Positions 1 through 26,929 of a DNA stretch of 64,000 bases are shown in pieces (position 1 is the first letter of the stretch; every line of letters begins with the position of its first letter). Under the pieces are notes generated by a model, which searched no databases, had not been told where the DNA came from, and saw nothing but the letters and a program-made list of their open reading frames with translations. Position numbers and translations under genes: made by a program. Origin of the DNA: Somniosus microcephalus (Eukaryota); assembly GCA_052327205.1 (NCBI GenBank), contig CM126233.1, forward strand, positions 33,294,001 to 33,358,000, written 5' to 3'.

Positions 1-930
1 GCCACACTTCCGATTCCGGGGCGGCGGCGGCGGCAGTTCCGGTTCCGGGGCGGGGTGCCGCGGCTCCAGTTCCGGTTCCGCCATGGCCTGTGAGGAGGGC
101 GGCGGCCGGAGCTGCGCTGTCCGCGGCTGCACCAACACCCAGGGCGGCCTGAGCGAGTGGCGGCAGACGGCGTGCGAGCAGCACCGGCCGCAGCGGCACG
201 GCGAGTGTCCGTGCCTGGAGCCCTTCTGCTTCTACCGCTTCCCGAGCGGCGCCGACGAGCGAGGCCGCTGGCTGCAGGCGCTGCGGGGCCGGGGCCTGCG
301 GGTGACGCCGGGGCCCGACCCGGGGCCCGAGGCCGCTGTCTGCTCGCTGCACCTGGAGGAAGGCACCTTGCTGCTGGGCTTGGGCCTGAGGAAGAAGCCG
401 CGGGCTGACCAGACCCCCGACCCCGACCTCGACGACTACCGGCCGGGCCGGGAGACGCGGGCGTCGCGGGCCCGCAAGAAGCAGCGGCCGCCCAGCCCCA
501 GCCCCCGGCGCCGGGTCCAGCCGCCTGCCCGGCCTCCGCCTCAGCCCTCGCCTCCCCCCCGGGCCCCGTCCCCCCCGCCTCCACCGCCGCCGCCGCCTCC
601 TCCTCCTCCCCCTCCGCCGCCGCTGCCCCTACCCGCCGCCTCCTCCTGGGAGCAGGCCGCTGTCCAGGCCATCATGCGGCTGCGCTGCGGCTCCAGCCAG
701 CGGGTGGCCCGCACCCTCATCGCCTGCCTCAAGGGCGAGAACGACCACCTGCGGCAGCGCAGCCGCCAGCTGGAGGCCGCCCTGGGCGCCACCGCCCGCC
801 AACTGGAGCGGATGCAGCGGGAGTGCCGCTGCCGGCACCGGCTGGGGGTCGAGGCGGGGCCCGGGCCCGAGAGCGCGGAGCCCCCCGAGCAAGTGCCGGG
901 TAACGAGGTGACGGTGGGCTGAGGCCTCTG
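1..930. promoter_or_regulatory. CpG island / TATA-less promoter and first exon of the THAP gene
   Basis: Very GC- and CpG-rich, with an abrupt drop after ~925. Several ETS-type TTCCG(G) cores in 5-80, including CAGTTCCGGTTCCG twice (34-47, 67-80). GC box GGGGCGGGG at 47-55. Strong Kozak CCGCCATGG at the ATG (83). Confidence 0.8.
83..922 (+). CDS. THAP-type (C2CH) zinc-finger protein with polyproline tract and C-terminal coiled coil, 279 aa if unspliced
   Basis: THAP signature CAVRGC...FYRFP...RWLQAL...VCSLH. Basic NLS-like RKKPR and RARKKQR, long poly-Pro, heptad-like LKGENDHLRQRSRQLEAALGATARQLERMQ. Open frame inside a CpG island with optimal Kozak. The 3' end may be spliced (donors at 900 or 908). 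Confidence 0.8.
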   Translation: MACEEGGGRSCAVRGCTNTQGGLSEWRQTACEQHRPQRHGECPCLEPFCFYRFPSGADERGRWLQALRGRGLRVTPGPDPGPEAAVCSLHLEEGTLLLGLGLRKKPRADQTPDPDLDDYRPGRETRASRARKKQRPPSPSPRRRVQPPARPPPQPSPPPRAPSPPPPPPPPPPPPPPPPPLPLPAASSWEQAAVQAIMRLRCGSSQRVARTLIACLKGENDHLRQRSRQLEAALGATARQLERMQRECRCRHRLGVEAGPGPESAEPPEQVPGNEVTVG

Positions 931-1100
931 CATTGGAGCTTATCCACCCGCTGCATTGGAGTTTATTTCCCCCCCCACACTGCATTGGAGCTTATCCTCA
1001 CCCCCCCAATCCTCAGGAACCACTTGCTGCTGCTGCTGCAGTCCCCACTCCAGTGCATTGGATCTTAAACCCACCCCAATCCGCATCCAGTGCATGGACC
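928..1100 (+). repeat. Short dispersed direct repeats (C)TGCATTGGAG(C/T)TTAT with variable spacers
   Basis: Close copies near 928, 952 and 980; degenerate copies near 1054 and 1091. Confidence 0.7.
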
Positions 1101-1257
1101 GACCGCCTCCCTCGGTGCAAACAACTCCTCGCCTGCAGCTCAAGATGGGGGCAGGAACCCCACTAACCCACCGCATCTGGGCAGAAAGGACGTTGGATTT
1201 CCCACCGACAGGCTGCGAACTTTAGGAGAGATGGGGGGGGGGGGGGTGTGGAGAAAT

Positions 1258-1515
1258 CTTCGACAGCACCTACCAAACCCGCCACCGCCTAGAAGGGCAG
1301 CGGGCGCGTGCGAACACCGCCACCTCCAAGTCTCTCCCGCCATGGAAATCTATCGGCCGTTCCTTCATCATCGCTGGGTCAAGATCCTGGAACTCCCTAA
1401 CAGCACTGAGGGAGAATCTTCAGCACACGGACTGCAGCGGTTCAAGAAAGCGGCTCACCGGGATGGGCAATAAATGCTGGCCTTGCCAGTGACGCCCACA
1501 TTGAACGAATAAAAG
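1258..1515 (+). mobile_element. 3' end of a non-LTR retrotransposon (shark LINE tail)
   Basis: Degenerate ORF2 C-terminus (...GSRSWNSL..., LQRFKKAAH) followed by the tail GGGATGGGCAATAAATGCTGGCCTTGCCAG. Family recognised from memory. Confidence 0.6.
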
Positions 1516-2469
1516 TTTGGATTTTCAGCTCTGGGGCAAAACCGCCCCTGCCTCTTTATGGGGTTGACATTAATATAAAAAGGATTTGAACAGTTCACAA
1601 ATCATCTTGCAAATGTTGGATGAGGATCCTTTGCTTGTAAACTCACATCAAAATGACCAAAGTCTTGAAATGGGAGAGAAGAGGTGAAAGGACATCTTGC
1701 TCCACGATTATGTTTTTGCAGCACCTGTGCCTTGGGATTGCCCTGGATGGTGGACCGTTTTTCATCTTTCCCAGACAGTGGGAGGCAGTATCGTGTCGAC
1801 CCAAGCGGTGAAGAAGGGATTTGAGTTTGACTGACTGCAGATGACGGCTGAATTTTAACAATTGGATTGTGTTGGTGGTTTGCAGACAGGTGCAGAATGT
1901 GAATCGTGGCTTTTTCTTTTTGAATACTTGAATGTTTCTTGCTGATCTGAATGGAACGTGCAAAGCCGAGCAGAACAGTTAGACCTGATGCACGACCCTT
2001 TCGCCAATGGTTCCTTCCAGATGAGATGGATTCCACATCGCTGCTGCTGCTGCTGGTCCCTTTCACATCTCCCATATAGTGCATGGCTTTAACCAGGACG
2101 TGTAAACGGAGTTCTTTTCAATTGAATGCCGCAGGAGGAGAACAGCTGAACCATAGGAGGGCACAACTCCCCTCAACATTTGGCAGCTGGGTCCTGGTGT
2201 GAGGCAGTAATGAATTGGTCATGAACCATCTTTATTCTGGGTCTGTACCTGTCAGCTTCGCTTTTGTATTAGGTGAGAGAGATGATACTTGGGGTGTCTG
2301 TTTAGTGTTGACACTAGGTTAATTTAACATTACAGCAGGAAAATTATACTCAAGCTCATAATTCACCACCCCAGTCACTTCCCACCACCAGTACTTCACT
2401 CGTTGCACAGCTCACCGTTTCTCTCTCTTTTTCCCCCCCCCCCCCCCCGAGATTGAGAATTCAAACCGC

Positions 2470-2715
2470 ACCGTGCAAGTTGTTAAATTGAATTCAATAA
2501 AATCTGGTATATTATGAGCTGGCTCCAACAAAGGCATGACCATAAGGCTGCTAGATTGTCATTTTAAAAACCCATCTGGTTCACTAACAAGGGGGAAAAG
2601 AAAACCCGACCCATCCCTATGTGGTCTGGCCTTTGTGACTGCAGTTCCATAAGGCAGCTCCGCAACGTCTAATTAGGGATGGGTAGTAAATGTTGCTTTG
2701 TCAGGGTTGCACCTC
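2470..2715 (+). mobile_element. Degenerate SINE sharing its tail with the LINE at 1258-1515
   Basis: Body AAAAACCCATCTGGTTCACTAA...GGTCTGGCCT and tail AATTAGGGATGGGTAGTAAATG, similar to 1460-1490. Confidence 0.5.
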
Positions 2716-4465
2716 ACACACACAGCCCCCCCGCCCCAACCGAAAAATAAACAAATTTGGAAGGACAGAATCTAGAATTGTACTGCTGCATGCCTAACTC
2801 AAATTTCACCATCACACTCAGTGACAACACTGGAATACCTAACAAATTAAGATGTACATTTTCATGGCATTTGGCATTGCAATATTTAATCGATATAATC
2901 AATGGAATACACTATTAAGATGGTCTGGTCTTAGACTGGCAGCAGTTCAGGTTTAAGGATTTGAGGTGTACTATTTCAGATTTCAGTACTACTGAAACGA
3001 GTGGACGATGCAGTGTCTTTCTCTTGCATATTGTGGGACCTGACTGCAGAGGTGTCCTTGTTTACTGTTGATTAACAACCAGTGAGAACATTAAGGAAAT
3101 TGTATGGCATAGAATTGCATTCAGATATTCCAAATTTTTTTGCGTGTATATATTGAATTATACTTCAGTTTTACTGTGAAGTGTTGTAAAGCAAACCACA
3201 GCAGATTTTCTTTTAATAGGTTTTAGGAGAAAACCTTGTGACCACATTAGCATTTGCAAACTGTGCTCAGTTAACTTCCACTTTTGTCTAAAGACTGTAC
3301 AGTTTAAAATTGGTTCGGTTGTATGTAAAATTCTGTTCAGATAAATATTTTTTTAAAAGCATTCTGTATTAATGCAAGACTTCATTAAAACCTGTGCTGC
3401 AACACTCCTTTTACTTGATCTCACTTCGCTGTGCCCCTGGGTGAATGGCCAAGTTTCAAACCCTCCCGTCAGGCATGACTTGACAAAGCAAGATTAGCAG
3501 GAGAGTTTCAACAGTCAGGGAAGGGCAAGAAGTGAGTCTGTGCCAGTGATCTCCCAGTGAAGCCTGTAGCGTGCAAAGGTGCTTCTTCGGATGAAAAAAA
3601 TGGGGAGCAATTCTACCCCTTGCACTTCACACCCTAGTAGGCGATCACAGAATAGCAACAGCAGAGGTTTTGGGAGCAAATCAAGCATCCATCCTCAGGA
3701 TTATGGATTCCAGCACTGAGGCAGGTGGGAGTTAGCCTGGGGAAAGCCAGCAGCACTGGCAGAGGGAGCTGTTTCTAACCAACTTTGTCACCTCTTGCTG
3801 CTGTTTGTGTGTGGGGGTGGGGGGGGGGGTGTTGCGATTGGTGTCAAAGCATAGCCAGCCTACTTTAGGAAAGCTGATACATTCAAAACAACCCTATCTC
3901 AGCCTGTTCTCCCCTCCCAAATCATGGAAGATTACCCGCTCCGAGAGTCATGGGTAGCCCCTGGCCCAGGGTTGTCGATGCTCCAGGAAGTAAAGGTTAA
4001 TCGCCAGGCCACTGCTGCGGGCAAACGGGAGGAAAATCATGACATTCACTTTTTTCCACCATTTTCTTTGATAACTTTAATTTATTAGTTATAAAAATAT
4101 TAGCTATTTGGGCCAACATTCCTCCCTCGAGCATCAGCACCAAAAGCAGATGAACTGATAAATCCGATTGTTGTTTGCGACATCTTGCTGACTCTTCATG
4201 CCAACAATTGCCGATTAAAAGCATATGTGCCCCCTTTTTAAAAGGGACACAACAAATAAAGACTGTAAATTAACAAATTTGAAAGGAACCTTAAATCAAA
4301 TTAAAATTTTGTTCCCGGGGTGATGATGCACTCCACTCCAGTCCCTCCGGTCACAGAAGGCCTCGTGTGCTGGTGGACACCACGCGCGACTTCTTGCTGT
4401 GCACAACATGGCTACTGCAATAACAGTTGCTGTATGGTAAATCATTGTAAGTGAAATGCTTGAGA

Positions 4466-6750: not shown

Positions 6751-6779
6751 GGAGGTTGTTAAAATTCTGCCTTAGCAGA

Positions 6780-10041: not shown

Positions 10042-11163
10042 TTACTGGAGCTGGAGCAGCTTCACAATATGACTGAGGGATTCTACCGAGGCGAAGGCCA
10101 AGTACTGACAGCAAAGCCAGACCTCGAGGCTAACACTGCATTCGGTGTCTATGGCCTTCTCTGCGAATTTGATCATGAGCAGCGTCCGTTTTAGGTCCAG
10201 CCAGTTCTGCAGCACGCTGTGCCTCTCCGCGCTGCTGCTGCGCGAGTTGAGCGTCTGGAGCAGGTCGTCTCGTGGTCCCCAAAGGAGGCACTGCAAGTAC
10301 ACTTTGGCATCTGAAATAAGGATGCGCTCCGAGGGATTGGGGTGCAGGAGGAGACCCGCCAGCTGCTGAAGCCCCTGGGAGTAGACGGAGCGTTTAGGGA
10401 TGGCGGGAAGGTCTATTCGGGTGTACTCCTTCTCTTTCAGTTCTGGGTTTTCTTCAAATGGATTGGGCAGGTGCAACATTTCGTAAATGAGTATTCCCGT
10501 TTGAAACTCATCACACTTTTTGTACTGGGTAATGGTGATGATCTCGGGTGCCAGTCTGGACTGATCCCTTAGCACCTCTAGATCTACCACCTGACTCTTC
10601 TGCTTGGCCTGGGAGAAGTTACTGACGATCAGTCGTGCCAGCTGCGTGGCTGGGTTCGTGTTTTCCGATTCACAGTCTCCTGGGGTTCCGTGCCGACACC
10701 GCACCAAGAGCAGATTCTCCAACCTCAAGTCGCAGTGTGTAACGTGGTGTGGCTTTAAGTGATTGAGGCCGGCACAGAGTTGGAGCAGCAGTAAGCACAC
10801 CTGCCGCTCGTAGATATCTGGGTTTTTCGCATGCCGAGGCGCTGATTCACGCACAAAGTCGGCAACAGTCTGGTATGGAACCTCTCGAGTGATGACCACC
10901 ACACGACTTCGGTGTTTGCTGGAAGTTCCCTTGGTACTGGAGTTGTTCTTTTTTATGGCATTAGGAACATCTGAGCTCTCTTCCTCTTCCTCCTCTTCTA
11001 ACACTGGGGCGTTGGGATCCTCCCAGGGAAGCATGCGGACTGGGACCTCAGCTAGGAAGTGCCCGCAGTCCTGTTGGATGTTGAAGTGCACGGCAAGGCT
11101 TTGTCTTACAGCCAGACTGTGGTAATACAGCTGCTGGGATGCTTTTGCTTGACTTTTACAAAT
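10042..11163 (-). CDS. PEAK1: PEAK1 last coding exon: pseudokinase domain and C-terminal SHED helices
   Basis: Acceptor cttttcttttccag|ATT at 11163. Translates ICKSQAKASQQLYYHSLAVRQSLAVHFNIQQDCGHF...HCDLRLENLLL...SNFSQAK...RLAPE...WLDLKRTLLMIKFAE. HRD is HCD and DFG is NFS, as in PEAK1. Stop TAA at 10044-10042. Confidence 0.97.
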   Translation of the reverse strand: MCKSQAKASQQLYYHSLAVRQSLAVHFNIQQDCGHFLAEVPVRMLPWEDPNAPVLEEEEEEESSDVPNAIKKNNSSTKGTSSKHRSRVVVITREVPYQTVADFVRESAPRHAKNPDIYERQVCLLLLQLCAGLNHLKPHHVTHCDLRLENLLLVRCRHGTPGDCESENTNPATQLARLIVSNFSQAKQKSQVVDLEVLRDQSRLAPEIITITQYKKCDEFQTGILIYEMLHLPNPFEENPELKEKEYTRIDLPAIPKRSVYSQGLQQLAGLLLHPNPSERILISDAKVYLQCLLWGPRDDLLQTLNSRSSSAERHSVLQNWLDLKRTLLMIKFAEKAIDTECSVSLEVWLCCQYLAFASVESLSHIVKLLQLQ

Positions 11164-11334
11164 CTGGAAAAGAAAAGGTGGAAGCTAAAAGTTAAAATCT
11201 AGAGAAGAGGGCACCTTTCCCAGTGAGCACAAAAAACTAATTCCTGTAGCTGCACATTTCCACCACTAGATGGAGCTTCATAATCTGCAGATTCCCAGGG
11301 CTGTACGACAATAACTTGCATTTACAGTATTTAC

Positions 11335-11676
11335 ATAGAATTTACAACACAGAAATAGGCCCAACTGGTCTATGCTCCACACGAGCCTCCTCCCACCCTA
11401 CTTCATCTCACCCCATCAACATATCCTGCTATTCCTTCCTCCCTCGTGTTTATCTAGCTTCTGCTTAAATGTATCTATACTATTCGCTTCAACCACTCCC
11501 TGTGGTAGCGAGTTCCACATTCTCACCGCTCTCTGGGGAAAGAAGTTTCTCCCGAATTCCCTATTGGATTTATTAGTGACTACCTTATATTTATGGCCCC
11601 TAGTTCCCTCACAAGCGGAAACGTGGTCTCTACATCTACCTTGTCGAACCCCTTCATACTTTTAAAGACCTCTATC
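11335..11676 (-). mobile_element. CR1 LINE 3' end
   Basis: Reverse complement of the CR1 end at 41040-41375. Confidence 0.85.
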
Positions 11677-11998
11677 AGGCTTTTCCACTGTTAGGAGCAT
11701 TACAGCCAAGCCCAATGCTGTGGTTACCTGATAGTCTCACACAGACACACACCCACCCCACCCCACATACACCCACCCCACACACACAGATACACCCACC
11801 CCACCCCACCCCACACACACAGATACACCCACCCCCACCCCACACACACAGATACACCCACCCCCACCCCACACACACAGATACACCCACCCCACCCCAC
11901 ACACACAGATACACCCACCCCCACCCCACACACTCTTCCAGCAAGGGTCAGTGGGTACCAATCAGGAGCAGGATCCCTGGTTGATTTACCCTCCCTAA
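11677..11998 (-). mobile_element. LF-SINE-like element with an internal minisatellite expansion
   Basis: Minus strand GTTAGGGAGGGTAAATCAACCAGGGATCCTGCTCCTGAT ... GGGCTTGGCTGTAATGCTCC resembles the LF-SINE body as I recall it, and shares motifs with 12690-12960, 16030-16245 and 36395-36685. Confidence 0.5.
11736..11932. repeat. Minisatellite, ~28-33-nt unit CACACACAGATACACCCACCCC(C)ACCC
   Basis: About six to seven tandem units are directly visible; they explain the low-complexity ORFs at 11675-12086. Confidence 0.9.
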
Positions 11999-12004
11999 CA
12001 TACT

Positions 12005-12490
12005 TAGTGGCTTTAACATAGGAAAAGTCCCAAGGCACTTCACAGAGGTATAATCTTTTTTTAAATGGGCAGCGAACCAAAGACAATATTAGGAGTTGTA
12101 ACCAAAAGTATGGTCAGAGGTGGGTTATGAGGAAAATCTTAAAGGAGGGAGAGAGAGAGATGAAGGGGGTTTAGGGAGGGAATTCCAGACCATGGGGCAT
12201 TGTTGGCTGAAGGCAAGGCCACCAATGGTGGGGCAAGGGGAGAGGGGAGATACACAAGAGGCCAGGGTGAGAGGAACAGGGAATTTGGGGGAAGGTGGCT
12301 GTAGGGCAGGATGGAAGTTAGAGATAGGGAGGGACGAGGACAAGATGATTAGAATTTTAAATCTGATGCATGGTGGGCCAGGAGCCAACATAGGTCAGTG
12401 TGGACAGGGCCGATGGGTGTGCGGGACTTGGTACGGGGTAGGATATGGGAGCAGTTTTGGATGAGCTGAAGTTTACGGAGGATGGGACGC
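12005..12490 (-). mobile_element. L2-type LINE 3' fragment
   Basis: Translates CIRFKILII...PTIGGLAFS..PMVWNSLP; homologous to 63155-63650. Confidence 0.75.
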
Positions 12491-12689
12491 CAGATTGGAA
12501 TAGTTAACAATCCACTAGGTAATACTGGAAAATAAAACGTGGCAGACAAAATTATAAAAATGCAAATTTAGCAGCAGCATTTATTCAGCCAAAGCAGCAG
12601 CAGAGACACAACAAATGACCAATCTTCCTTGGCAAGGATCACGGGAGGAGGGGCGAAACATCCAGACAGCTTCCAGTTAGAAAATACAT

Positions 12690-12960
12690 TCCCAGCTGTG
12701 AAGCTGAACCAGAGAGATTCGGAAGATCCCAGGTTTGATCTGCAGTCTGTGCTGTATGAGCTGATCTCAGCTGTGATGGCAGTAAGAGCCCTTGATTGCG
12801 ATTGAATGGTATCTGTCGGTAGCATGAACATATGAGTGAGGGCACAACCAGGCTTGACTATGATGCCTCCAGCACCAAATAGCTTGCCAGTATTCACTGT
12901 CCAGGCTGAAACATACAGGAGGGTTACATTGGCAAGGTACTGAATGATGGGCGGTGCCCA
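12690..12960 (+). mobile_element. Degenerate LF-SINE-like element
   Basis: GGAAGATCCCAGGTTTGATC..TCTGTGCTG..AGCTGATCTCAGC head, shared with 17497-17550, and AAATAGCTTGCCA..CACTGTC, shared with 36555-36580. Confidence 0.5.
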
Positions 12961-13214
12961 TGGAAATATAACCCTGCACGAGTGACTGCTTTCAGGAGAG
13001 GGGAGAAAATTGGAGTTGGTTTTGGCAGGGGGGGGGGGGGGGGGGGGTGGTGTGCATGATTGATAACAAGAACTGCTGTACATGGGAACCACTTTCTCAA
13101 ACTGAAGATAGGTCAGACCGACAAACTTGACTGTGCGTCTCATCCCTCAGTCATCCAGTCCGTCTTTTTCTTGGGAAGACGCATCACAAACAGCCACACA
13201 GTCCACTCCTGATA

Positions 13215-13747
13215 CAGGAAACTCTCGTTTAAACAGCACCTAAATATCCGGAATTCTCTTATTAACCAGCAAAATTCTCGCTCCGAAAACAACACCTCAA
13301 TAACCAGCAATGTTGCCGAGTCCGAGTCTCCCGCGGTGGCCGAGTTAGTCAGTGGGGGTAGTTCTCCATACTGTCACTACTCGGCTTCTTGGCGCTGTCG
13401 GAAGTCCGAACACCTCAATAACAGGAGTCTGACTCTCCCGCGCTGCCGGTAGTCTCTTCTGATCTGCCATTTTACAGGGTTACTGTGTGTCTCCCACGCT
13501 GCTGGTAGTCATTGCATTGCATTACCCTCAACTGGCAGTACTGTACTTAATCAAGCATCTTCCACCATCCATTTAACACAACATTCTGTAGGTGAGTACC
13601 CAATTACTGTATACTGCACATTTCTTGATTTTTTAATTTTTCTTTGTTAAAAATAGCCTCGGTAGATAACCCTCTCCGTCATCCGGAATTTTTGATCAAC
13701 CGGCAACACGGCGGTCCCATCGGTGCCGGATACCAAAGAGTTTCCTG
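13215..13747. mobile_element. pogo/Tigger-like MITE related to family A, 533 bp
   Basis: TIRs CAGGAAACTCT / AGAGTTTCCTG. TA on the left; right TSD altered. Subterminal GGTCCCATCGGTGCCGGATA shared with family A. Internal direct repeats. Confidence 0.75.
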
Positions 13748-14642
13748 ATAATTCTAAGTTGTATAGTGCACGAAAAAGATGTAAATTTATCCGATCATGT
13801 GAGTTTAGTAAATAACACAGCAAAGTGGGAATTTAGTCCTAAAAATTGAATTATTGAATGTTTTGAATTAAGCATCTTTGCATTAAGACTAGGCTATCTG
13901 CTTAACAAATGCGCTGTAGTAATGTTCTACATCACACTAGGAACATAAAAAAACAACTTTATTATCCAAAGAATGGGTCAACAAGGATCTCGAATCCACT
14001 CTTGGTCACAAAAAGTTGTTAACAAGGCAATAAACCTGTATTTCAACTGACTGAATTGTCAATGAGGAACGGTTTGAGCTGGTCTCGAAGGAGTAAAGTG
14101 CTTTATAATTCACTGTAAACAACCTCTGGAGTTTCAAAGTTCAACCAGTCCAGCTGAAACCCTAATGGAAACCTCATACGACGGTGCTTGTGATCCATCA
14201 AAGTCACGCAGGGGGAAAATAACACAAAAAGAAAAATGACAGAAATGAAATATCTGCCAGCTCGGAGGTTGTTAAGTTTCTTTTATCCAAAAGGTAGTGG
14301 AATGAATTACCAGATAACTTAACTAGAACACCAATGCTGGAAGCAATAACCCTCAAAGACTCTCGGTTCATTAAGGGAGAAGTTTCAGTTAATCTTCGAA
14401 TGCTGAATCCCCTTTGTAGCTTCCCGAGAAATGCTTTTGTTCACAGTTATGAGCTATACTAACTAACTTGGTAAAATGACAAAAAATGAACAGGAAATTA
14501 GATATTTGATCAATTTTATCAGTGTAGCCAATTTGGTGCGTTACAGTACACACCACTCAGATCCTGGGGAAAGGAAGAGGTACCATTTTTAGTTGAGAGC
14601 CTGACCATAAGAGAGAGACAGGTGGAAAAAGGCCATACATGG

Positions 14643-14869
14643 TGACGTAAGAAAATAACTAGGCACTTGGTCTAAGCGTTAAACAAAGCTTTAATCAACT
14701 GTTTTACAACATGGAGGTCTGGTTGTGTCCTTCACTAGTTCCTGTTAAGAATGTCCTGCGCAAGCTGGGCCCGTGCCCGAGTATTTATACTCTCCCTGGA
14801 CAGCGCCAACCGCAGGCTGCTCAGTATTATTTCATAAGTCTTTCTTTCATGAATGGCTGATTCATGTCA
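14643..14869 (-). mobile_element. Solo LTR, 227 bp, 5-bp TSD CATGG
   Basis: TG...CA ends; CATGG at 14638-14642 and 14870-14874; TATAAATA box and ATTAAA on the minus strand; inverted homolog of 24731-24956. Confidence 0.8.
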
Positions 14870-16029
14870 CATGGCACTTCTTAGCTCATCCAACTGCCTT
14901 TTAAATCAGGAACGTCCAAAGCTTTTGTTTCCATGGTCTGTGCACCATTAAACCTCAGGGACACACAGATATTTATTCTTATTTATTTTTATAGAACTCA
15001 AATTGCTGATACTAACAGATCTTAAGAGTTCTGATTTAGAATCCATTCACCAATGAGGGAACAACAGCACTGAGAACAGCTCTTGCCAACTCTCCAGGCC
15101 CACAACATTCAAACAGGGCAGGCCAGCCAGTAAGCAGCACAAATGCAAACAGAGCCAAGTTGCCTGGGCTTTGTAAGCTGAATTGCCATGACTTTAAGGT
15201 CACATGTTGCCCACAGGCTGTAGTTTGAAGTCCTTTTATCTTAACTGACTCCGAAACTTTTGCCTTCACAGATCTAGCTGCAAGGGTTGCGCACTCTTTG
15301 AAGAACTTTCTAACATCAGTTCTACATTTGATAAGAAATATGTTTTAAAAAGATGGTGACTCGGCTCAGAGCAGAGATTGAGCCAAGGACATTCCTAGCT
15401 CAGAACCTCACCAGCAATGCATTAATTACTTGAAGCCATTGAGGAAATCCCACATTTAAAATCTCTTGACTGAACTAACAAACTTTAATTAACACAACAC
15501 TTAATACAATTGCCGGCAATTATTCCCTGCCCCCTTTAGCACGACCTTCCCTGTTGAAAGTATTTTACTAGTATATCCAAGGCTTGTCTCACATTACCCT
15601 CCTAGAGTATTCGCAGGCGCAGTGACAAGGCAGAGGCCAGACATTCTCCAGCTGGCATTATCTGCTTTTGTGAGGAGAAACACATTTTCATTTGGCTACT
15701 AATCAGGGCACAATCAAAACTGTATCTAGATGGAGAATTTTAAATCCCAGTCATTTTTTCAATCTGGTTAATTTCACAACATAAAATAATAAAAAAAAAT
15801 TGGAAGGAAGAATGAAAACCTTACTAAACGCAAAGAGTTAACAATTATATGTAAGCGAGACTCCATGCAATCGTGCAAAAACTAAGTGTAGAGGAAGTGG
15901 TCAGGCACCGAAGACTCATTGAAATGACACGACGATATATTAGTCTGGCACCTTCACCTTCCTGTTAGAGACGCAATTAGTGCAAATACTGTGTGACGAC
16001 GGGACTGATGTTCTTCCCTTTCGATTCCT

Positions 16030-16245
16030 TCAGAGGTTCCCACTGTTGCTCGCTGATCCAGCAATCCCAGCTGGAAAGTGGGCACGTGCGGACACCTTGG
16101 CTATCCACGATGCTACCCACTGTCAGATAGCCCATCAACACTCACTGGCTAGACTCACATAATGATCAGTCATTCGGGTGAGGTCGGAGATCTCTGGTGG
16201 TGTCTGTGTGAAACCCTATCCCAGCCCAGCATAAGTCAGCACCTT
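16030..16245 (+). mobile_element. Degenerate LF-SINE-like 3' half
   Basis: GCTGGAAAGTG..., ATAGCC..CAACACTCACTG.CTAGACTCACAT..., AGTCAGCACCTT; similar to 36510-36670. Confidence 0.4.
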
Positions 16246-17444
16246 TGTGTGTGTGTGGGGGGGGGGGGGGGGGAAAGAAGAGATAAAATGGTAAAATACT
16301 CGAGTAAACACAGGTGCACTTGGATAGGAGACTGTTTCTGTATTCCAATTGTTATGACTGTGTAACATTTACATTTCAGAAGAGATCGTGTTAGAACAAA
16401 ACATCCACAATCTTGCTTTCTGTAAACCCTTCAGTGCTGAAACAACACCATAAAATTACTGATTCATTAAATAAACATTATGCTGGCTGGTGGCCTTTAG
16501 ATACACACCTCCACTAGAGAATCTTCTTTTGCTAAAATAAAGGCCAGCACTGCAAATTCATTGTCATCAGACTACAATCTAATAAATTTCAATTGTGACC
16601 GAGTGAAACAAAGACACTGAATCAGCCAACCATCGTGTTCGACTCAAACTGAAGTTCCATTTCCACACCAACAGGTTCCATGAAGCATTAGTTAAACCTC
16701 ACCGAGTGTTACACATGTGCTCGAGGGTAGAACTCACTGTTGGCGACATTAATATACAAATGCTAAACACGTGTCAAATTGTTTTTAATGGCGCCGTTAA
16801 CTGGTTTAACATAAATGCGTTAATGCTTGTGTTAAAACAGGAGCGTGAGGTCTTGGATATGAACACATTAAGCAATCATGTGATAAAATAGCTCACAACA
16901 ATTTTCAGGCCACGGAGGCAGAGAACGGGAACAAGGATGGTCCCAAGTTTTAAATGATTGAACTTCAAAGGGAGGCTACAGAAGAGAAATCTATTCTCAT
17001 TAGAAAAAAAAGGGGAATTAAACTCATTTGTTTCATATAACAGAGACAATTAATAAAAGGTGACTCGAGAGAGGGATTCTGTACAAAAAGATAAAAGACC
17101 CAATGAACGAGATTATAGAGAAAATAACAAGTTTAAGGAATAATTTAACACTTCAGTGTCACTGATTTATGGAAAATCACAATAAATGTGGCTCGGCTAA
17201 CGCTAAGGGAATTGGATTGATTCCAGATGTAGCAGGGAGTTGTGGCGTATGGATTTAGGGTGGGAAAATAACAAAACAAATGGTTAGCTGGGCCTTGCTG
17301 TTGAAGTGAACGGACTTTACTGTTCTCACATTCTTTCGTTCTCGAGCTCTTCTAAAATTAGAACTCAGCGTGAATAATTTCAACAAGGAGGAGGCAATCA
17401 ACTGCAATGAAGATTATACTGTAGGCCTAAAGATCACTGCTGGC

Positions 17445-17585
17445 TTGCTGAGTTAAGTGCATCAGCATCCAGTGTGGTACAAAGCCATAAAGTCCAGGAA
17501 GGTGCCAGGTTTGATCATTGGACAGTGTTGTATTTGTTGATTCTAGCTGGGGCAGTGGTAGGCAGATTATAATTGGCCTCAGTGT
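17445..17585 (+). mobile_element. Degenerate LF-SINE-like 5' part
   Basis: CCAGGAAGGTGCCAGGTTTGATC...GGGGCAGTGGTAGG...AATTGGCCTCAG. Confidence 0.45.
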
Positions 17586-18141
17586 CTGGTCATTCATCCG
17601 AAACAATATGGTATAAACACTAGTCAGTATGTTATTTTACATTGTCATTTATAAATGATAAACTTTTGTACATTTCTTTCCCCCCATACAATGACGGCAG
17701 AAAATGGATCACAGAAAACGTCAAGTCACTGATCATTTCATTAGTTGGAGTCGGGTTCATTCGGTCAATCTGTCACTTTGGAGTGGGTTAGGTCTGTCTG
17801 AATAATGTCACTGCTGTTCGACTTTGTCAACTTTAAGAGTCAGGAAATTGTGGGTTCCTCTTAACAACCCGATAGTTTGAAGCCAAGTGCACACTAATTT
17901 ATTATCCAAGGGTGTTTCTCGACGAGGTTAGGGGACATGTAGCGCACGGTTACAACAGCAGATGCTAGGTTGCATAAAAATGACTCCGAGACTTCCGAAG
18001 AATTAACATATGGAGTGTATTGCCATTTTGTACAGCAAAGGTTTGAAAACTGGAGCCCACATACACTAGGGGTTCCTGAGTTCATCAGACTTCTAACCGT
18101 CCATAATCAGATTTGTGTATTTGTTGGCTTACTGCTGCATT

Positions 18142-18405
18142 ACAACAACAATTTGCATTAATATAGCACCTTTAACATGGAAACACTGCTCAAGGTGCTT
18201 CATAGAGGTCTAGTGAGACTAAAATGGATGTAGAGCCAAAGAAGGAGATGGTAGGAGAGCTCACCAGAAGCTTGGTCAAAGAGCTGTACAATCTGAAGGC
18301 ATGCCGCCAATGGTGGGGCAAAAGACACTGAAGTCGGAGGGGCGGAGAGCTCTGGGGGTGGGCGATGGAGATTGTAGGGCTGGAGGAGATTAGAGATAGG
18401 GTTGA
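18142..18405 (-). mobile_element. L2-type LINE 3' end
   Basis: (CAA)n-TTGCATT.ATATAGCACCTTTAAC tail and ISNLLQPYN motif; homologous to 38608-38975. Confidence 0.7.
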
Positions 18406-20048
18406 GCAAAGTTACAAAGGGTTAAGAAAGAAACTATAAGCCAGGTGATCATGTATTCCAACATACACTGTTAAAGCAGTAACTAGATTTTAAAAGTTGC
18501 TATAATACTTGCCAGCTAAGAAATCCCCATCCAAAAATGTGAAGTCTTTTAGAATTTGAATGCTAACAGATCTCTGGTCCATCAATGCATGGTCTTTCTC
18601 CAGTGAGAAGAAAGGAGAATTGGAGGGAAAGCTATTGTGGACCACTCGTTCTCCTCCTGGTGGGCAGATTAAGAGTATTGCAAATTGGAGTTTGCAAACG
18701 AGCACCTGCCTCTAACCAACAGTTTACCATGAAGACACCAATGATTGTGTGGGAGGAGGGAGGTGGGGGAACTGGAAATGAGGCAGGGTAAAGTTGTGGC
18801 ACTTCTACCGAGAAGGCAAAAGGGTTAATTTTGTTGTAGAATATTTTTGTTAATTTGAATATGTTAAAATAATTGTACTTAAATGTATAAAGATTATTCA
18901 CAAGACTGTAAAGCTGTGTTATGAAAAATAAAAGTGGCATGGAAATAAAAATTAACAGCAACTATCCTTAAAGTCACAGATACAGCAGGAAACAGAATGG
19001 ATGCAGTGCAAGTTGGGTACGGCAGGATGAGCTGAGGTATCACCTGAGGCATCGACAGCTAAAGTGTTGTAAAATTCAGAAATATATAATTTTCAAGAAG
19101 TTTGGGTTTGAATGCTTCGATTTAAAGCACTTTTGGAGTGAGGGTCTGAGGAGAGCACAGAATAAAAACTGTCTAAGCAAAATCTTGCAGGAATAAGCTG
19201 TTGCCAAGCAACCAAGGAAGTGGAAACTACAGACAAGTACTTAAGACCACCCAAGACAGAAATCTTAATACTGTATAAGCTGCCAAATCCTGTAACCAAC
19301 AGTCACAGTTAATGAGACTAAATTTTTAAATAAAGTTGCATTTTTGCTCCTTTATTCAAAGGCACTTATCCAACGACATGTGTTATTAATTATACCTAAA
19401 CTTGAAAGAATTTGACACTGCACTGCTTATTTCAAGTAATTCAAAAAGCATGTGAATTCTCACGATATTTTATGAGACAGGAAAAAGAAAAACTCTCTTT
19501 AAAATGTACAAGTTTGAAGCTCAAGTGGCTACATTCCCAGAGGAACACATGAAACCCATGGCTTTTTTTCTTATTCCTAGAGCTTGTCTGTTGAGCAGCA
19601 AGTCTCAAATATCACTAATCACATAAATACAGGTAGCTGGGAGGAAATTCCAAACCATGCTTGCTGCAGCAGTACCTAAACCCCCATCCGCACCAACATT
19701 GTCCACATTCTCCTCATAAGGAAATCGGTCTGAATTTGTGTTGACACAGTGGCCATACTTTGATCTCGAAGAGTGGTGACATATTGACTTCCCATCACAT
19801 TTAGATTACTGGCTTTACTTGCAGAATATAAGTGCGAGGAGAAAGATTGAATGGACTCGCACATCATATAACTGATTATAAATACTTCTGCCAGGTTAAA
19901 CAAGTTGATAGTCTGCTGGCTACAAACACCGTTGAAACTTTGAACCTGGACTGATATCCCTTTGTTCGAGTCCATCCAATAACCGTCGACTTTGAACAGA
20001 AGCACAACGTTGTCCTGCACTCTTGGGAGGGGCGAAAAAAATGGAGTA

Positions 20049-20366
20049 CAGGAAACTTTGGTTTATCCGGAGGTTAACTGTCCGGAATGTTCGAGTCACC
20101 GGCAAAAATCAGGAGCCGTTTCGTTAGGTTTTTTTTCTTTTCGTTGCTTTTTTTTTTCCACCAGTCAGGCTTTGCAAGGTCTCGCTGAAGCTGTTGCTAA
20201 GCTACAGAGACGCTTACAAGGTACGGCCGACTGCAACAGGGTTTGTTGCCAGATACGGAGCTCAAAAGCTTCCGTATGTTTCAACATTAGCGCTGGTTTG
20301 TCCGGCAGTTTTGATGGGACGGCAACAGCTCGGTCCCGTCGGTGCCGGATAGCACAAAGTTTCCTG
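20049..20366 (-). mobile_element. pogo/Tigger-like MITE, family A
   Basis: CAGGAAACTTTG TIRs, TA TSD, near-identical to 32497-32819. Confidence 0.9.
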
Positions 20367-20475
20367 TAGCTATAAACAACATCTCCCCGCCAGAAAAAAG
20401 TGCAAACTGTTTCTTTGGACACCGTCTAAATGGTGATTATTTGTGTGCGAGTATCGACAGCACCTGGCTGTTAGT

Positions 20476-20660
20476 ACATAGAATTAACAGCACAGAAACA
20501 GGCCATTCGGCCCAACTGGTCCATGCTGGTGTTTATGCTCCACACGAGCCTCCTCCCACCCCTCTTCATCTCACCCCATCAACATATCCTTCTATTCCTT
20601 TCTCCCTCCTGTGTTTATCCAGCTTCCCCTCAATGAATCCATGCTATGCGCCTCAATTAC
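20476..20660 (-). mobile_element. CR1 3' tail
   Basis: Same sequence type as 11335-11500 and 49012-49205. Confidence 0.75.
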
Positions 20661-20767
20661 TACAGTGATTCTGTCCAGTTTCCACAAAAACTGCCTTGGC
20701 TATGGTTTTTCGTGATGACCAAATTTTGGTACGCTAAAAAATGGTGAGAATCATTCTGAGCGCTTAC

Positions 20768-21549
20768 CTTGATTGCATATTGGTTATAGAGGTCCTTAGC
20801 ATAGGATGCTGTGTAGTAAACGGCATCACCTGCCTCACAGCAAGGTTTATCGCTCGTCAGTCTGAAGTCTGACCAGTTGTCCAGTCCAAAGCGAAGCTGG
20901 TTCTTTTGGCCCTCCATGAATTTGTCCTCACATTTAGCTGCCAGTTTCCGCAGCGAGTCTGTATGGAGATTTCGAATCTTTATCACCACCTCCTCTTTGT
21001 TCTCAATCCCTTTGTACAGTGCGTGCCTTTGTGGCTTTTGTATGCTTTTACCGGGTCTCTGAGGAAAACGATTCTTCTCGGATAGTGAATCCAAGCTATT
21101 TGAGCACCTTTCCTTACTGCTGCTCATGGCAAGGCTGCAGGTACTGTTGGCCATTGATGAAATGCTGGCCTTTGTCACTGACTTGCCCACTGCTCTGTCC
21201 AGTGAATCTCCCGACTCATTGTCACATATTCTGGCATCTGAGCTAAGTGAGGAACAAGCACTTGATGCATCCCAGTTTGCGTCCCCAGGATACTCTACAT
21301 CATACAGTGGGTTTGCCAAGTTAACATTGTGCCCAGAATTTCTCACTTCTATCATTTTGTGGACATAGTCCTTTGATGCTGGATCAGTGTTTGCTCGGAT
21401 TATGGTCTTTTTTGGAAGAGGGGGTGGTGTTGGCTGACTCTCGGACATGGTTTCCTGTTCTGTGGATCCCGAAAATGCAATGGCATCATCTGAAGCTCCT
21501 TTCACTTGTCTTGGCTGCTTCAGGGGTATCATGTTGGCCCGCGATTGCC
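20768..21549 (-). CDS. PEAK1: PEAK1 coding exon 3: Crk-SH3 and 14-3-3 motifs, N-terminal SHED helix, start of pseudokinase
   Basis: Acceptor ttgtatag|GG CAA TCG (phase 1) and donor ATC AAG|gtaagc (phase 0), 782 bp. Encodes GQSRANM...PPPLPKKTIIRANT...NPLY...LHTDSLRKLAAKCED...WSDFRLTSDKPCCEAGDAVYY...YAIK. Confidence 0.96.
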
Positions 21550-21857
21550 CTATACAATCACATAAAAAAAGCTTTAGAATCATAGTACTGTTCGACAACA
21601 TATGCACTTTACTGAACAACTGCACAGTTTTTAATAAAAACACACTTTGGATTGAACATGGCTTCTGAACACTAACTTCCGATACCGGTGAAAATGTATT
21701 TCTCAGTGTTCAATATAAATTTTGGAATTTCATAGATCAATTTAAGCGTTTAGCTTTCAGGCCATAAGAGGATTGCGAACCAGCACTTCTGATCAGTAAA
21801 GCACGATGAACATAATTGCAGTGCACTGGAGCCATAGTGCAGTCACAGTTCATTAAC

Positions 21858-22527
21858 TGCAGCAGGCGGTTAAGAAGGCAAATGGTATGTTGGCCTTCAT
21901 AGCGAGAGGGTTCGAGTACGGGAGCAAGGATGTCTTGCTGCAGTTGTACAGGGCCTTGGTGAGACCACACCTTCAGTATTGTGTGCAGTTTTGGTCGCCT
22001 TATCTGAGGAAGGATGTTCTTGCCATGGAGGGAGTGCAGCAAAGATTCACCAGACTGATACCTGGGATGGCAGGAATGACGTATGAGGAGAGATTGGATC
22101 GACTAGGCTTATAGTCGCTAGAGTTTAGAAGAATGAGAGGGGATCTCATTGAAACTTATAAAATTCTAACAGGACTAGACAGACTAGATGCAGGAAGGAT
22201 GTTCCCGATGGTGGGGGAGTCCAGAACCAGGGGTCACAGTCTAAGGATAAGGGGTAAGCCATTTAGGATTGAGATGAGGAGGAATTTCTTCACCCAGAAA
22301 GTGGTGAACCTGTGGAATTCTCTACCACAGAAGGCAGTTGAGGCCAATTCATTAAATATATTCAAGAAGGAGTTGGATATATTTCTTAAGGCTAAAGGGA
22401 TCAAGGGTATGGGGAGAAAGCAGGGACAGGGTACTGAGTTTGGATGATCAGCCATGATCTCATTAAATGGCGGAGCAGGCTCGAGGGGCCGAATGACCTA
22501 CTCCTGCTCCTATCTTCTATGTTTCTA
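21858..22527 (+). mobile_element. 5'-truncated CR1 LINE
   Basis: ORF2 C-terminus (LYRALVRPHL.YCVQFWSP; FFTQKVVNLWNSLP) with an in-frame stop, plus 3' UTR; very similar to 60825-61826. Confidence 0.92.
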
Positions 22528-24730
22528 TATTACCCTGCTATGAGTGTACGAAATCCTTTACATTTTAGATTTATAGTCTTACTGATCCATAAATTAGCAC
22601 CAAGTGAGTGGCACCACTTACAGTGAAAAACTTTATACTAGCAGCTGTATACTGCTGTTAGACACAGCAACTACAGTCCACCGACACTTCAATTTCAGTG
22701 GGGCTTATTTGAATTTTTCCACCTTCTCTCTGTAGGTAGTTCCGCGAGCACCAGCGATCCTCTATGCAGTACAGAGGGTAGATTTTTTTTTTAACAAAAT
22801 GAAATCAATGCATGCAGATATCAAGGCGGCAGCAAGATTGGTTTTAGACAGGGAGAACCAGTTTTGGTTACTGTTGTGATCACGGAGTTCAAGATTATTT
22901 GATTACATACCTGGCTGTGGAATGGAAATGGTTAGTCACGCAGCCAGTTAAAGAGTGGGTTATGTTGATTTTAATCATGGTATCAGGTATGAAGCAGGCA
23001 TGGCCATAAAGAGATTTTAAAGAATGCTGAGAGTAGCAGTGGATCGGGGGGATGAAGAGCCAGGGAGGGCTGAGGGATTAAAGAGTTGTTGAAAGCAATA
23101 AGAATAATATACGTGCTCAGAAACACTGAAGCTCTGGGCAAACTTCCAAAGAAGACAGAAGCTTTACAAAGAAAAACTGAAAGTGCTTCAAGAAAACCGC
23201 TAACTCAAATGATTTTCATAAAAATCTTTCTGAAAAGCTACATTTATGAAATAGCCATCTGCATAGATGCTTCACTGTGCTTACATTTAATGTGATTGCA
23301 TTTAATTGCCAAGCGTTTTTCACTGCATAGAATGTAGTTTTGAAGTCATGTTTCATCCTCCTGCAGAATATGAGTAACCCAACATACCTCTGCTCCAGTA
23401 ACCAGTTAGTGGAGATTGGCATTCTCCTCAAATTCAACATTGCCACAGACAATAAAAAGGTCTTACCTGGTGCCAGTCTGCAGTAACACAAACATTGTTC
23501 TCACAGGCATTCCCAATTAGACAATTATACATGGCCAGCACATAGATGCAGCACACATTTTCTACACTGCAAACACAAAGATGTGACCGTGATACAACGT
23601 CACGATCGCCATCATATCGCAGGGCCCCGAGACAAACTATGGGACAATCCCATCCATAGAACAATTTCAGTGACACCTGCAATTTGTATTTTTAACAATT
23701 AAAACTTTGATAAAATCTGAACTCAGAGGACGTAACTTACCAGGAAAAAGTATCTGTCTAAATAAGTTGGATGATCTTTACAAAATATAACAGTCACTGA
23801 TAATGACAAAAATTGAATAGGCTTTAAAAGGGGTCTCTCATCAACAGCCACCTCAACCCTACAAAGTTCGGAACCCTTCTGTGGCAGACTTGGTAATCTG
23901 ATCCTGAACCAGGCGGGTCTTCAGAACGACAGGGTATGGTTGATAATCAACTAGTCTGTCTCTTAATGGGACCTGGAGGTGTACACGGTCACTGAGAACT
24001 CAGATTCTTCCCACTCAGTTCCAGATAGTCCTTCTAGCAAGCAGTGTGGTCCCAGCTGGACAAGCAGTGAGATGCTTACAGTGCTCTATCCAGGCAAGAT
24101 CCAGTTTTACCTGGTTAAACTCCATCAGTACCCCTGTGCAAATTCAGGGGTTCTCTAAACCTTGGCCCTGCCAACAGTAAGCTCTCTGGCATTGGGTAAG
24201 TGGGGTGTGCTCCTCTGGGAGACAGGTGTTCTCCGTAATGGACAAAACAGAAATTTCTACACGTGTGGCTTTCTCTTGGTTTGGATACTCAAACAACACC
24301 GACTGATCCAAGACAAACTTTCAATGGCAGGTTTAAAACAAGCCAATCAGTGTTATTACTGTGCTTGATTACCAATCCAACAGCTCATTTCAAAAACCTC
24401 AAAACATTTAATTGGCACTTGAGTCAATAATTCCATGTAGTGAACAGTCATCAAGATGTCAAAGCCATTTCCGAGCCGCACCCACTGGAATCACTGAGAT
24501 ACATCAAAAAAAAACTGCAGATTTAGCTCAACCAAGTAATTTCTGCCCAAACTTCAGGATTACTCCCCCTGCTGGGCCGGTTAGACAGATACAGATTAGG
24601 AAGCCCAATGAGCAGCTCAACACATGCTGCAGAAGGGCAGGTTTCAAATTCTTAGCCCACCGGGACAACTTCTGTGGAAGGATAGGTTTTTTACCATTGG
24701 GATGGCACCACCTAAATGAGAAGGCATATT

Positions 24731-24956
24731 TGTCATCAATCTTATCACTCATGAAGAAATGACTCATGAACTAACACTGGGCGGCCAGCTGGTGGCGGCG
24801 TCCAAGGAGTATAAATACTCGGGCGTGGGCCCAGCTTGCCCAGGACATTTTTGTAACCAGGAACTAGTGATGTAGCTAGAATCTCATGGTTGTGAAACAG
24901 TTGATTAAAACCTTGTTTTATACTCAACCAAGTGCTCAGTGAGTTTTCTTACATCA
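24731..24956 (+). mobile_element. Solo LTR, 226 bp, 5-bp TSD ATATT
   Basis: TGTCAT...ACATCA ends; ATATT at 24726-24730 and 24957-24961; TATAAATA near 24810, ATTAAA near 24904; homolog of 14643-14869. Confidence 0.8.
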
Positions 24957-26867: not shown

Positions 26868-26929
26868 GGGATCAGTGCTAGGGCCACGGGGATCAGTGCT
26901 AGGGCCACGGGGATCAGTGCTAGGGCCAC
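26868..26929 (+). repeat. 21-bp tandem triplication GGGATCAGTGCTAGGGCCACG
   Basis: Three consecutive units covering the GSVLGP RT motif of the old CR1. Confidence 0.9.

What the first reader, a model, noticed from the sequence alone, without database searches (positions are those of the whole stretch)
1..922. CpG-island THAP zinc-finger gene with an extra Cys/His insert: candidate domesticated transposon gene next to PEAK1
Seen: an intact 279-aa ORF with optimal Kozak in a CpG island with ETS and GC-box motifs. The THAP C2CH core is interrupted by W-x4-C-x2-H-x4-H-x2-C-x-C (WRQTACEQHRPQRHGECPC), which could bind a second zinc. The usual AVPTIF box is replaced by GTLLLGL. NLS-like, poly-Pro and coiled-coil segments follow. 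No DDE domain, TIRs or clear D/E-H-x-Y HCF-1 motif is visible. Knowledge: THAP domains derive from transposase DNA-binding domains. From memory, this insert and a PTLxLGY-like ending occur in THAP domains tied to PIF/Harbinger elements rather than in mammalian THAP genes, and the human PEAK1 3' neighbour is TSPAN3. Inference: a lineage-restricted, host-adopted transcription factor.
Basis: partly seen in the sequence, partly recalled or inferred. Interest (0 to 1): 0.8.

Follow-up and report, generated by a model that had tools for sequence, protein, structure and literature searches.

The report
Ancient fish gene from transposon zinc-finger
This is an intact, single-copy shark gene, shared with skates, coelacanth and gar, whose zinc-finger domain likely came from a jumping DNA element long ago and is predicted to hold a second zinc ion; it likely works as a paired regulator in the nucleus, though the shark version has lost much of the usual DNA-gripping surface.

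Summary
The ORF (83-922, 279 aa) is real: Pfam THAP over cut-off, one match in a 6.4-Gb genome, no transposase or terminal repeats. It is a host gene, but not shark-restricted. Orthologues share a C-terminal helix/coiled coil in sharks, skates, coelacanth, gar and teleosts. NCBI already lists two as the uncharacterised si:ch211-113p18.3. Linkage to PEAK1 holds in five species, and THAP pN/pS is 0.14 against one relative. The insert's conserved core is C-x2-H-x7-C-x-C; the second His is variable. It marks a large animal THAP subfamily whose transposase-bearing members have THAP+HTH+DDE_Tnp_4, the ISL2EU layout rather than PIF/Harbinger proper. GTLLLGL is the family's P-T-L-x-L-G box after a 9-residue deletion. 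Elasmobranch copies also lost the invariant Phe, the last Pro and the basic charge, so canonical DNA binding is doubtful. The coiled coil is predicted to homodimerise. In teleost models the same C-terminal module carries other THAP domains. The THAP+PEAK1 block may be inverted in this assembly. No paper on the gene or insert turned up. The scan noted ISL2EU-derived host genes on other DNA, not this one. Verdict: new variant of a known kind.

The parts
7..82 (+). 5' part of the CpG island with five ETS-like CTTCCG/TTCCGG sites and two GC boxes; likely promoter/5' UTR, possibly shared head-to-head with UBL7 (inferred)
   Evidence: protein words implying GTTCCG repeats also precede the ATG in catshark and bamboo-shark models; UBL7 adjacency
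83..922 (+). single-exon ORF, 279 aa, orthologue of si:ch211-113p18.3
   Evidence: orthologues end in the same EVTVG; reads and a contig cross 900-922 unspliced
113..388 (+). divergent THAP zinc-finger domain, residues 11-102 (C11, C16, C87, H90; P54, W63)
   Evidence: Pfam PF05485 25.7 bits; family profile hits five solved THAP sequences, best THAP11 E 3.6e-12
158..214 (+). insert W26-C44 with predicted second zinc site C31, H34, C42, C44
   Evidence: C31 79 of 79, H34 79 of 79, C42 77 of 79, C44 78 of 79 rows; H39 only 40 of 79
362..382 (+). GTLLLGL: the family's P-T-L-x-L-G box after an elasmobranch 9-residue deletion of loop 4, which removes the last invariant Pro
389..487 (+). basic stretches RKKPR (103-107) and RASRARKKQR (126-135); NLS-like (inferred)
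   Evidence: RARK(K/R) kept in all six elasmobranch rows
488..634 (+). poly-proline linker, residues 136-184, about 30 residues longer than in the other sharks and skates
647..832 (+). conserved C-terminal module W189-C250: short helix plus long helix, predicted parallel homodimeric coiled coil ending in C-x-C
923..3390 (+). likely 3' UTR with candidate poly(A) signals at 2496, 2746 and 3384 (end not determined)
   Evidence: sparse same-strand reads in run X15; motifs
10042..46835 (-). neighbouring PEAK1 coding exons (context, tail-to-tail)

Best explanation
This is a conserved single-copy gene of jawed fishes whose THAP zinc finger was likely taken from an ISL2EU-type transposase and is predicted to bind a second zinc, and whose product likely works in the nucleus as a coiled-coil homodimer that regulates transcription. 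Shown: intact single-copy ORF, orthologue clade, linkage to PEAK1, purifying selection, and homology of the N-terminal domain to THAP+HTH+DDE_Tnp_4 transposases. Inferred history: an ancestor of jawed vertebrates kept the DNA-binding end of such a transposase, lost the HTH and catalytic DDE parts, and joined it to a dimerising helix of unknown origin. Inferred mechanism: the coiled coil pairs two chains, and C31/H34/C42/C44 fold the loop-1 insert round a second zinc. In bony fishes the basic THAP domains likely grip DNA. In sharks and skates the domain keeps all eight metal ligands but has lost the invariant Phe, loop 4 with its Pro and its positive charge, so it most likely binds DNA weakly or not at all and acts mainly through protein contacts.
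For: One match each for the THAP and C-terminal parts in G000. Twelve core orthologue rows sit on one branch, 95/95, with one unlabelled long-branch row (P0041) on the same branch, and the branching follows the species tree. PEAK1 and the orthologue share contig length in whale shark, bamboo shark, two skates and coelacanth, with consecutive accessions in little skate; a bamboo-shark draft model chains PEAK1 to the antisense of this exon. 13 synonymous against 5 non-synonymous differences in residues 8-105, pN/pS 0.14, p 6e-5. Profile match to transposase-bearing family members, probability 99.8, over the THAP domain only. 9 of the 17 family hits of 400 aa or more carry the transposase core. 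THAP+HTH+DDE is the ISL2EU layout. Homodimer score 0.35 against best control 0.00, runs agree in at least 95% of contacts, pLDDT at least 78; the mark was reached by 17 of 29 eukaryote homodimers and 0 of 30 single chains. THAP net charge is -4 to +1 in 8 elasmobranch rows against +4 to +13 in 87 other family rows.
Against: No function, localisation or DNA binding was tested. The deeper tree is unresolved and names no transposase sister; many family members are host THAP or THAP-C2H2 genes. Only 15 of 150 hits match the transposase core, though most are short. The C-terminal module has no match in the transposase alignment. The second zinc site rests on conservation among hits that were found by likeness to this insert; the fold tool gave no coordinates. 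Fold matches to THAP are weak (E 0.39; Z 2.9, rmsd 3.4-4.4, 59-69 aligned). The dimer score only just passes the mark of 0.32, and coiled coils may pass from memory. With 25 more residues counted, the charge gap narrows: elasmobranchs -4 to +2, bony orthologues 0 to +11. pN/pS rests on one pair, from a run whose RNA status is a guess. Same-species expression is a few reads in one of two runs, with none over 1-367.
Confidence: 0.68

Rival explanations
1. It is an ordinary sequence-specific THAP transcription factor in sharks too: the basic RKKPR tail replaces the deleted loop 4 and the dimer restores affinity.
For: All zinc ligands, P54 and W63 are kept. The domain is under purifying selection. 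RKKPR or CKKP follows the box directly. One basic residue in loop 4 may suffice (bioRxiv 2021.02.01.429122 passage).
Against: The invariant Phe is Leu, the last invariant Pro is gone, and the N-terminal tail is acidic; net charge stays -4 to +2 with the tail counted; the elasmobranch stem branch is long, 0.91.
Confidence: 0.3
2. The THAP domain came from an older host THAP gene (for example a THAP-C2H2 gene or the THAP11 line), so the transposon link is only remote.
For: Insert-type THAP also occurs on host-like C2H2 proteins in ticks and fish. THAP11 is the closest solved sequence and has the same short loop 4. No transposase sister is resolved.
Against: Transposase-bearing rows are scattered through the family tree. 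The genome has its own THAP11-like gene on another contig, without the insert and with no C-terminal likeness. No non-fish protein carried the C-terminal module.
Confidence: 0.2
3. It is a live or recently dead transposon piece.
For: Homology to transposase N-termini.
Against: Single match in the genome. A full transposase query found only this locus and one broken, distant DDE piece, under a stricter first look. No DDE, no TIR. Shared position and purifying selection.
Confidence: 0.02

Closest known systems
si:ch211-113p18.3 (uncharacterised; NCBI name on whale shark XP_048472951 and coelacanth XP_014353998)
   Same: Same gene: insert-type THAP plus the same C-terminal module, on the PEAK1 contig.
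   Different: Only a predicted, clone-named record; no paper found. The zebrafish protein itself was not among my hits.
ISL2EU transposases (PHIS / Harbinger-like superfamily; PMC4482050, PMC4122938, PMC9179366, passages read)
   Same: N-terminal THAP; family hits with THAP+HTH_Tnp_4+DDE_Tnp_4 carry the same insert and P-T-L-x-L-G box.
   Different: No HTH, no DDE, no TIRs, single copy. 12 of 16 transposase-core rows have a [DE]HxY motif against 0 of 12 core orthologues. The C-terminal module is not found in them.
THAP11/Ronin and the other vertebrate THAP proteins
   Same: Works-like comparison: N-terminal THAP, low-complexity linker, C-terminal coiled coil. THAP11 is the best solved match of the family profile.
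   Different: No loop-1 Cys/His insert in THAP11, which has DHSY and a VPTIF box and sits on another contig; no C-terminal likeness.
HARBI1, NAIF1, MSANTD1-4 (Harbinger-derived vertebrate genes; PMC9392472, passages read)
   Same: Domestication from the same transposon superfamily at about the base of jawed vertebrates; single-copy, syntenic.
   Different: Those derive from the DDE transposase or the Myb-like ORF of Harbinger proper and persist in mammals. That paper's main text has no 'THAP' or 'ISL2EU', and no tetrapod orthologue of this gene appeared.

Membership tests
Canonical THAP domain | Pfam PF05485 over curated cut-off | tested here: met
   25.7 and 28.4 bits against 23.9, profile positions 1-62 of 87 only
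Canonical THAP domain | C2CH ligands Cys-x2-4-Cys ... Cys-x2-His | tested here: met
   C11, C16, C87, H90; definition
Canonical THAP domain | 35-50 residues between second and third Cys | tested here: not met
   70 residues, because of the insert
Canonical THAP domain | invariant P, W, F, P | tested here: not met
   P54 and W63 kept; Phe is L91 (F in 68 of 79 rows); last Pro deleted
Canonical THAP domain | C-terminal AVPTIF box | tested here: not met
   0 of 103 family rows have it; 68 of 103 have P-x-hydrophobic-x-L/M-G instead
Canonical THAP domain | beta-alpha-beta THAP fold | tested here: inconclusive
   model pLDDT 72; top four Foldseek rows are THAP domains but E 0.39 or worse; VIA Z 2.9
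Canonical THAP domain | zinc-dependent sequence-specific DNA binding | not testable with these tools
   only indirect: charge and loop 4 lost in elasmobranchs
ISL2EU transposon | transposase with THAP, HTH and DDE | tested here: not met
   THAP only
ISL2EU transposon | second ORF with YqaJ exonuclease | not tested
   the other window ORFs were not scanned against Pfam
ISL2EU transposon | terminal inverted repeats, usually starting GG, and AT target duplication | tested here: not met
   no flanking pair beyond short or low-complexity matches among the 25 longest of 99; a target duplication cannot be read without ends
ISL2EU transposon | dispersed copies | tested here: not met
   1 match of 102 and 1 of 25 scored candidates
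Domesticated transposon-derived gene | homology to a transposon protein | tested here: met
   THAP part only, probability 99.8; C-terminal module unmatched
Domesticated transposon-derived gene | single copy at a conserved position | tested here: met
   position read from contig lengths, accession order and fused gene models, not from genome alignments
Domesticated transposon-derived gene | purifying selection | tested here: met
   pN/pS 0.14 in one pair; invariant residues across 24 rows
Domesticated transposon-derived gene | expression | tested here: inconclusive
   6-7 sense reads deep near the stop in run X15, almost none in X14, none over 1-367; contigs in probable-RNA run X1 but not X5
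Named vertebrate THAP genes (THAP11 as test case) | orthology | tested here: not met
   a separate THAP11-like gene lies on contig C6 with only a 45-residue, 36% match; other classical THAP loci lie on other contigs (their names recalled)

The most novel reading that the evidence does not exclude
A two-zinc THAP class, made by a C-x2-H-x7-C-x-C insert and native to ISL2EU transposases, has gone undescribed. Jawed vertebrates tamed one member into a dimerising platform that tetrapods lost, sharks turned into a DNA-blind version, and teleosts re-armed several times by splicing new transposon THAP domains onto the same C-terminal exon. The gene would also be a fossil of ISL2EU-type activity in the jawed-vertebrate ancestor, before the proposed horizontal entry at the base of teleosts.
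Probability: 0.35. Interest if true: 0.72.

Novelty: new variant of a known kind. Interest (0 to 1): 0.5.

Why it matters
Transposon-derived THAP regulators are a known kind, so the existence of one more is modest news. Three things lift it. The insert defines a large THAP subfamily with no solved member and a likely second zinc site, testable with one small protein. The gene is an old, unstudied vertebrate innovation from ISL2EU-type elements, which papers report as undetected in shark, gar and coelacanth genomes. And one gene offers a natural series (basic domain in bony fish, eroded domain in sharks, swapped domains in teleosts) for asking how a captured DNA-binding domain is kept, disarmed or replaced.

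Tried and rejected
Splice donor near 900 extending the ORF: rejected; orthologues end at the same EVTVG and reads run through. Five-ligand insert: rejected. Shark-restricted gene: rejected. THAP11 orthology: rejected. Transposase origin of the C-terminal module: no support; best non-orthologue E 0.026 in a local set and no profile match. Its fold search and Atlas search named nothing usable (CCDC3 at 0.87 is a lead only). A single-sequence search of solved structures gave no significant hit. The Atlas search with the coelacanth protein gave generic THAP clusters. No listed run holding the stretch is on record as RNA. Whether an upstream exon at about -4.2 to -4.0 kb splices into this ORF stayed untested; the possible inversion offers another reading, as a PEAK1 5' exon. 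Direct gene-neighbour look-up in other species was not available. A 15q24 paper gave no gene-order passages, so the human gene order is recalled. The Kolobok paper has no THAP mention. The HMG20 label of the upstream exon got no Pfam or PDB support and is recalled. The first large tree finished only in quick mode with 62 of 136 forks open.

Full report
Observation. The window opens on a CpG island (1-922: GC 0.775, CpG o/e 0.85) holding an intact ORF, ATG 83 to TGA 922, 279 aa. Pfam THAP scores 25.7 bits against a cut-off of 23.9. The neighbour is PEAK1, 93% identical to a sawshark PEAK1, so the genome is a shark's.

Copy number. In the 6.4-Gb genome the THAP part gave 1 match among 102 scored candidates and the C-terminal part 1 among 25. 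A full transposase of the family found this locus and one distant, stop-ridden DDE piece, under a stricter first look. The 25 longest of 99 inverted pairs from -2.5 to +4 kb include no credible terminal repeat. Eleven classical THAP matches lie on other contigs. One is THAP11-like (name recalled), with DHSY, and shares only 45 residues at 36% with the query.

Orthologues. A first search gave five elasmobranch proteins at 60-81% identity; the whale-shark one is named si:ch211-113p18.3. The wider search gave 285 proteins at E up to 0.001, of which 150 were listed; the best non-elasmobranch one is the coelacanth protein of the same name. A profile search listed 30 proteins at E up to 1e-10 among 8000 scored: sharks, skates, coelacanth, gar, tarpon, eels, bonefishes, arowana, shads, sardine, unnamed records and one mussel transposase, but none labelled tetrapod, chimaera or jawless fish. 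That absence is limited by word sharing and a 134-539 aa window. The orthologues share a C-terminal module, W-E-Q-A-x-V-x-A-I-M ... I-A-x-L-K-x-E-N-D-x-L-R. In a 47-row tree of the THAP domain (a subset of 141 rows: all module carriers and transposase-bearing rows less three near-duplicates, plus 19 chosen others) 12 core orthologues sit on one branch at 95/95, with one unlabelled long-branch row beside them, and split into elasmobranchs and bony fish.

Synteny. PEAK1 and the orthologue lie on contigs of identical length in whale shark, brownbanded bamboo shark, thorny skate, little skate and coelacanth. In little skate the accessions are consecutive, XP_055518527-28 and 529-30. A draft bamboo-shark model chains PEAK1 exons, the antisense of this exon and UBL7. 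Eel-group models fuse the C-terminal module to a CD276-like protein, and CD276 is on the window's contig, 11 Mb away. In this assembly UBL7 lies beyond PEAK1's 5' end, and the THAP+PEAK1 block is bounded by two runs of exactly 500 N at -1398..-899 and 176506..177005. Flipping the block gives the bamboo-shark order. I infer a mis-oriented contig or a real inversion, and that the island is likely head-to-head with UBL7; N runs may also be withheld sequence.

Selection and expression. Contigs of run X1 (RNA by guess; a related species) cover 80-526 and 640-961 at about 95% identity. In residues 8-105 they differ at 13 synonymous and 5 non-synonymous places, pN/pS 0.14, p 6e-5 (20 of 21 differences of that contig were listed). 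Same-species raw reads: X15 has 6-7 reads deep at 898-931 on the strand opposite to PEAK1's reads, so the sense strand, and none at 1-367; X14 has next to none; X5 has no contig there. Only 31% and 24% of the raw runs were read, and no silent control stretch was laid. Expression is likely but thinly shown.

The insert. 125 of 150 hits match C-x2-H-x(5-10)-C-x-C; the extra His is present in 68. In a 79-row alignment C31 and H34 are invariant, C42 is in 77, C44 in 78 and H39 in 40. Four near-invariant ligands beside the C2CH set suggest a second zinc. This is inferred, the hits were chosen by likeness to the insert, and the model (pLDDT 72; insert blocks 82-87) came without coordinates. Fold searches rank THAP structures first but weakly. 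The family profile hits five solved THAP sequences over the part after the insert, so no solved member with the insert was found.

Origin. Of 30 long hits scanned, 8 carry DDE_Tnp_4 with HTH_Tnp_4 and 3 more carry HTH_Tnp_4 alone. 15 of 150 hits, and 9 of 17 of 400 aa or more, match a transposase-core profile; others are THAP-C2H2 or short proteins. Orthologue and transposase profiles align over the THAP domain at probability 99.8 and nowhere else. THAP+HTH+DDE is the ISL2EU transposase layout (PMC4482050, PMC4122938, PMC9179366; passages). These papers report ISL2EU or all PHIS elements as undetected in sharks and coelacanth. No transposase sister is resolved, so direct descent is likely, not shown.

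The shark version. The family ends H-F-x-x-G-x-P-T-x-x-N-P-x-P-x-L-x-L-G; elasmobranchs read H-L-E-E-G-T-L-L-L-G, a 9-residue loss. This removes loop 4 and the last invariant Pro, and the invariant Phe is Leu. These signatures and the basic loop 4 are described as needed for DNA binding (bioRxiv 2021.02.01.429122 and PMC2879526, passages). Net charge up to the C2CH His is -4 to +1 in 8 elasmobranch rows, +4 to +8 in 5 core bony-fish orthologues and +4 to +13 in 87 others. With 25 more residues it is -4 to +2, 0 to +11 and 0 to +14. The 8 rows are close kin, so this is one event.

C-terminal module. It is predicted as a short helix plus a 53-residue helix, pLDDT 83. The homodimer model scores 0.35 against a best control of 0.00 and a mark of 0.32, with in-register contacts over residues 199-251; runs agree in at least 95% of contacts, pLDDT at least 78. 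The mark was reached by 21 of 30 microbial and 17 of 29 eukaryote homodimers and by 0 of 23 and 0 of 30 single chains; a coiled coil may pass from memory. This supports dimerisation and does not show it.

Domain swapping in teleosts. Of 37 proteins with the module (many are isoforms or near-copies), 17 have an insert-type THAP, 12 a classical THAP and 8 none by pattern (Pfam confirms full-length classical THAP in 6 of 8 checked). Shad insert-type domains group with other teleost THAPs at 100/97, and a single clade of all carriers is rejected (p-AU 0.003; group named after seeing the tree). Tarpon and arowana models keep the PVLN-like tail of the old domain behind a classical THAP. These are gene models that I could not check against reads.

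Literature. 'ch211-113p18.3' and '113p18' gave 0 papers. Searches on THAP with Harbinger, ISL2EU, second zinc, fish-specific families and ISL2EU domestication (listings) showed no paper on this gene or insert. Passages were read of PMC9179366, PMC10027918, PMC4482050, PMC4122938, PMC2879526, PMC9392472, PMC9587614 and the bioRxiv paper; PMC3261729 gave no hits for my terms. No supplements were read, the library lacks most subscription papers, and expression tables may list the gene. The scan's notes hold two ISL2EU-derived host genes in other genomes and nothing like this sequence.

Verdict. A real, old, conserved host gene of jawed fishes, already annotated but unstudied. It is a THAP-derived variant rather than a canonical THAP member, and not a transposon. 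New variant of a known kind; interest 0.5.

Noticed in passing
G000:C32, window -1398..-899 and 176506..177005 (L002:8602-9101, L048:2506-3005): Two runs of exactly 500 N bound a 177-kb block holding this gene and PEAK1; flipping it restores the bamboo-shark order PEAK1, THAP gene, UBL7. Possible mis-oriented contig or real inversion.
   Followed up: partly
L002:5760-6026 (window about -4240..-3975): CpG-rich plus-strand element ending in a strong donor GAG|GTAAGA; may be a non-coding first exon of PEAK1 if the block is flipped, or of this gene.
   Followed up: partly
L002:9701-9838, minus strand (window about -300..-160): Short ferritin-like coding fragment (PDB ferritin E 1.6e-5) between two 54-bp direct repeats, just upstream of the island; likely a retrocopy piece.
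   Followed up: partly
L009:1672-2031, minus strand (window about -78.3 kb): Exon resembling the HMG20A/B coiled coil (recalled; no library support), with a CpG island at about -66.5 kb.
   Followed up: partly
L003, window about -18.0 to -14.1 kb, minus strand: Broken gag/pol-like ORFs of an LTR retroelement (label from recalled motifs).
   Followed up: no
window 27058-29845, plus strand: Long CR1-type LINE with endonuclease and reverse-transcriptase-like frames inside a PEAK1 intron (label recalled).
   Followed up: no
window about 4800-10041, minus strand: PEAK1 3' UTR about 5 kb long, covered by contigs of runs X1 and X5, ending roughly 1.5-2 kb from the likely 3' end of the THAP gene.
   Followed up: no
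proteins P0126, P0160-P0171, P0174-P0176 (shads, sardine, tarpon, arowana): The C-terminal module is duplicated in clupeids and joined to different THAP domains, classical or insert-type: repeated THAP capture.
   Followed up: partly
L022 (G000:C9:115518143-115518328, minus): A second THAP11-like domain with the short loop 4 besides L020; identity unresolved.
   Followed up: no
protein P0006 (little skate, XP_055518529): The record changes frame after the linker and is misnamed 'translation initiation factor IF-2-like'; an unnamed, near-identical protein (P0008) is intact, so likely an assembly error.
   Followed up: partly
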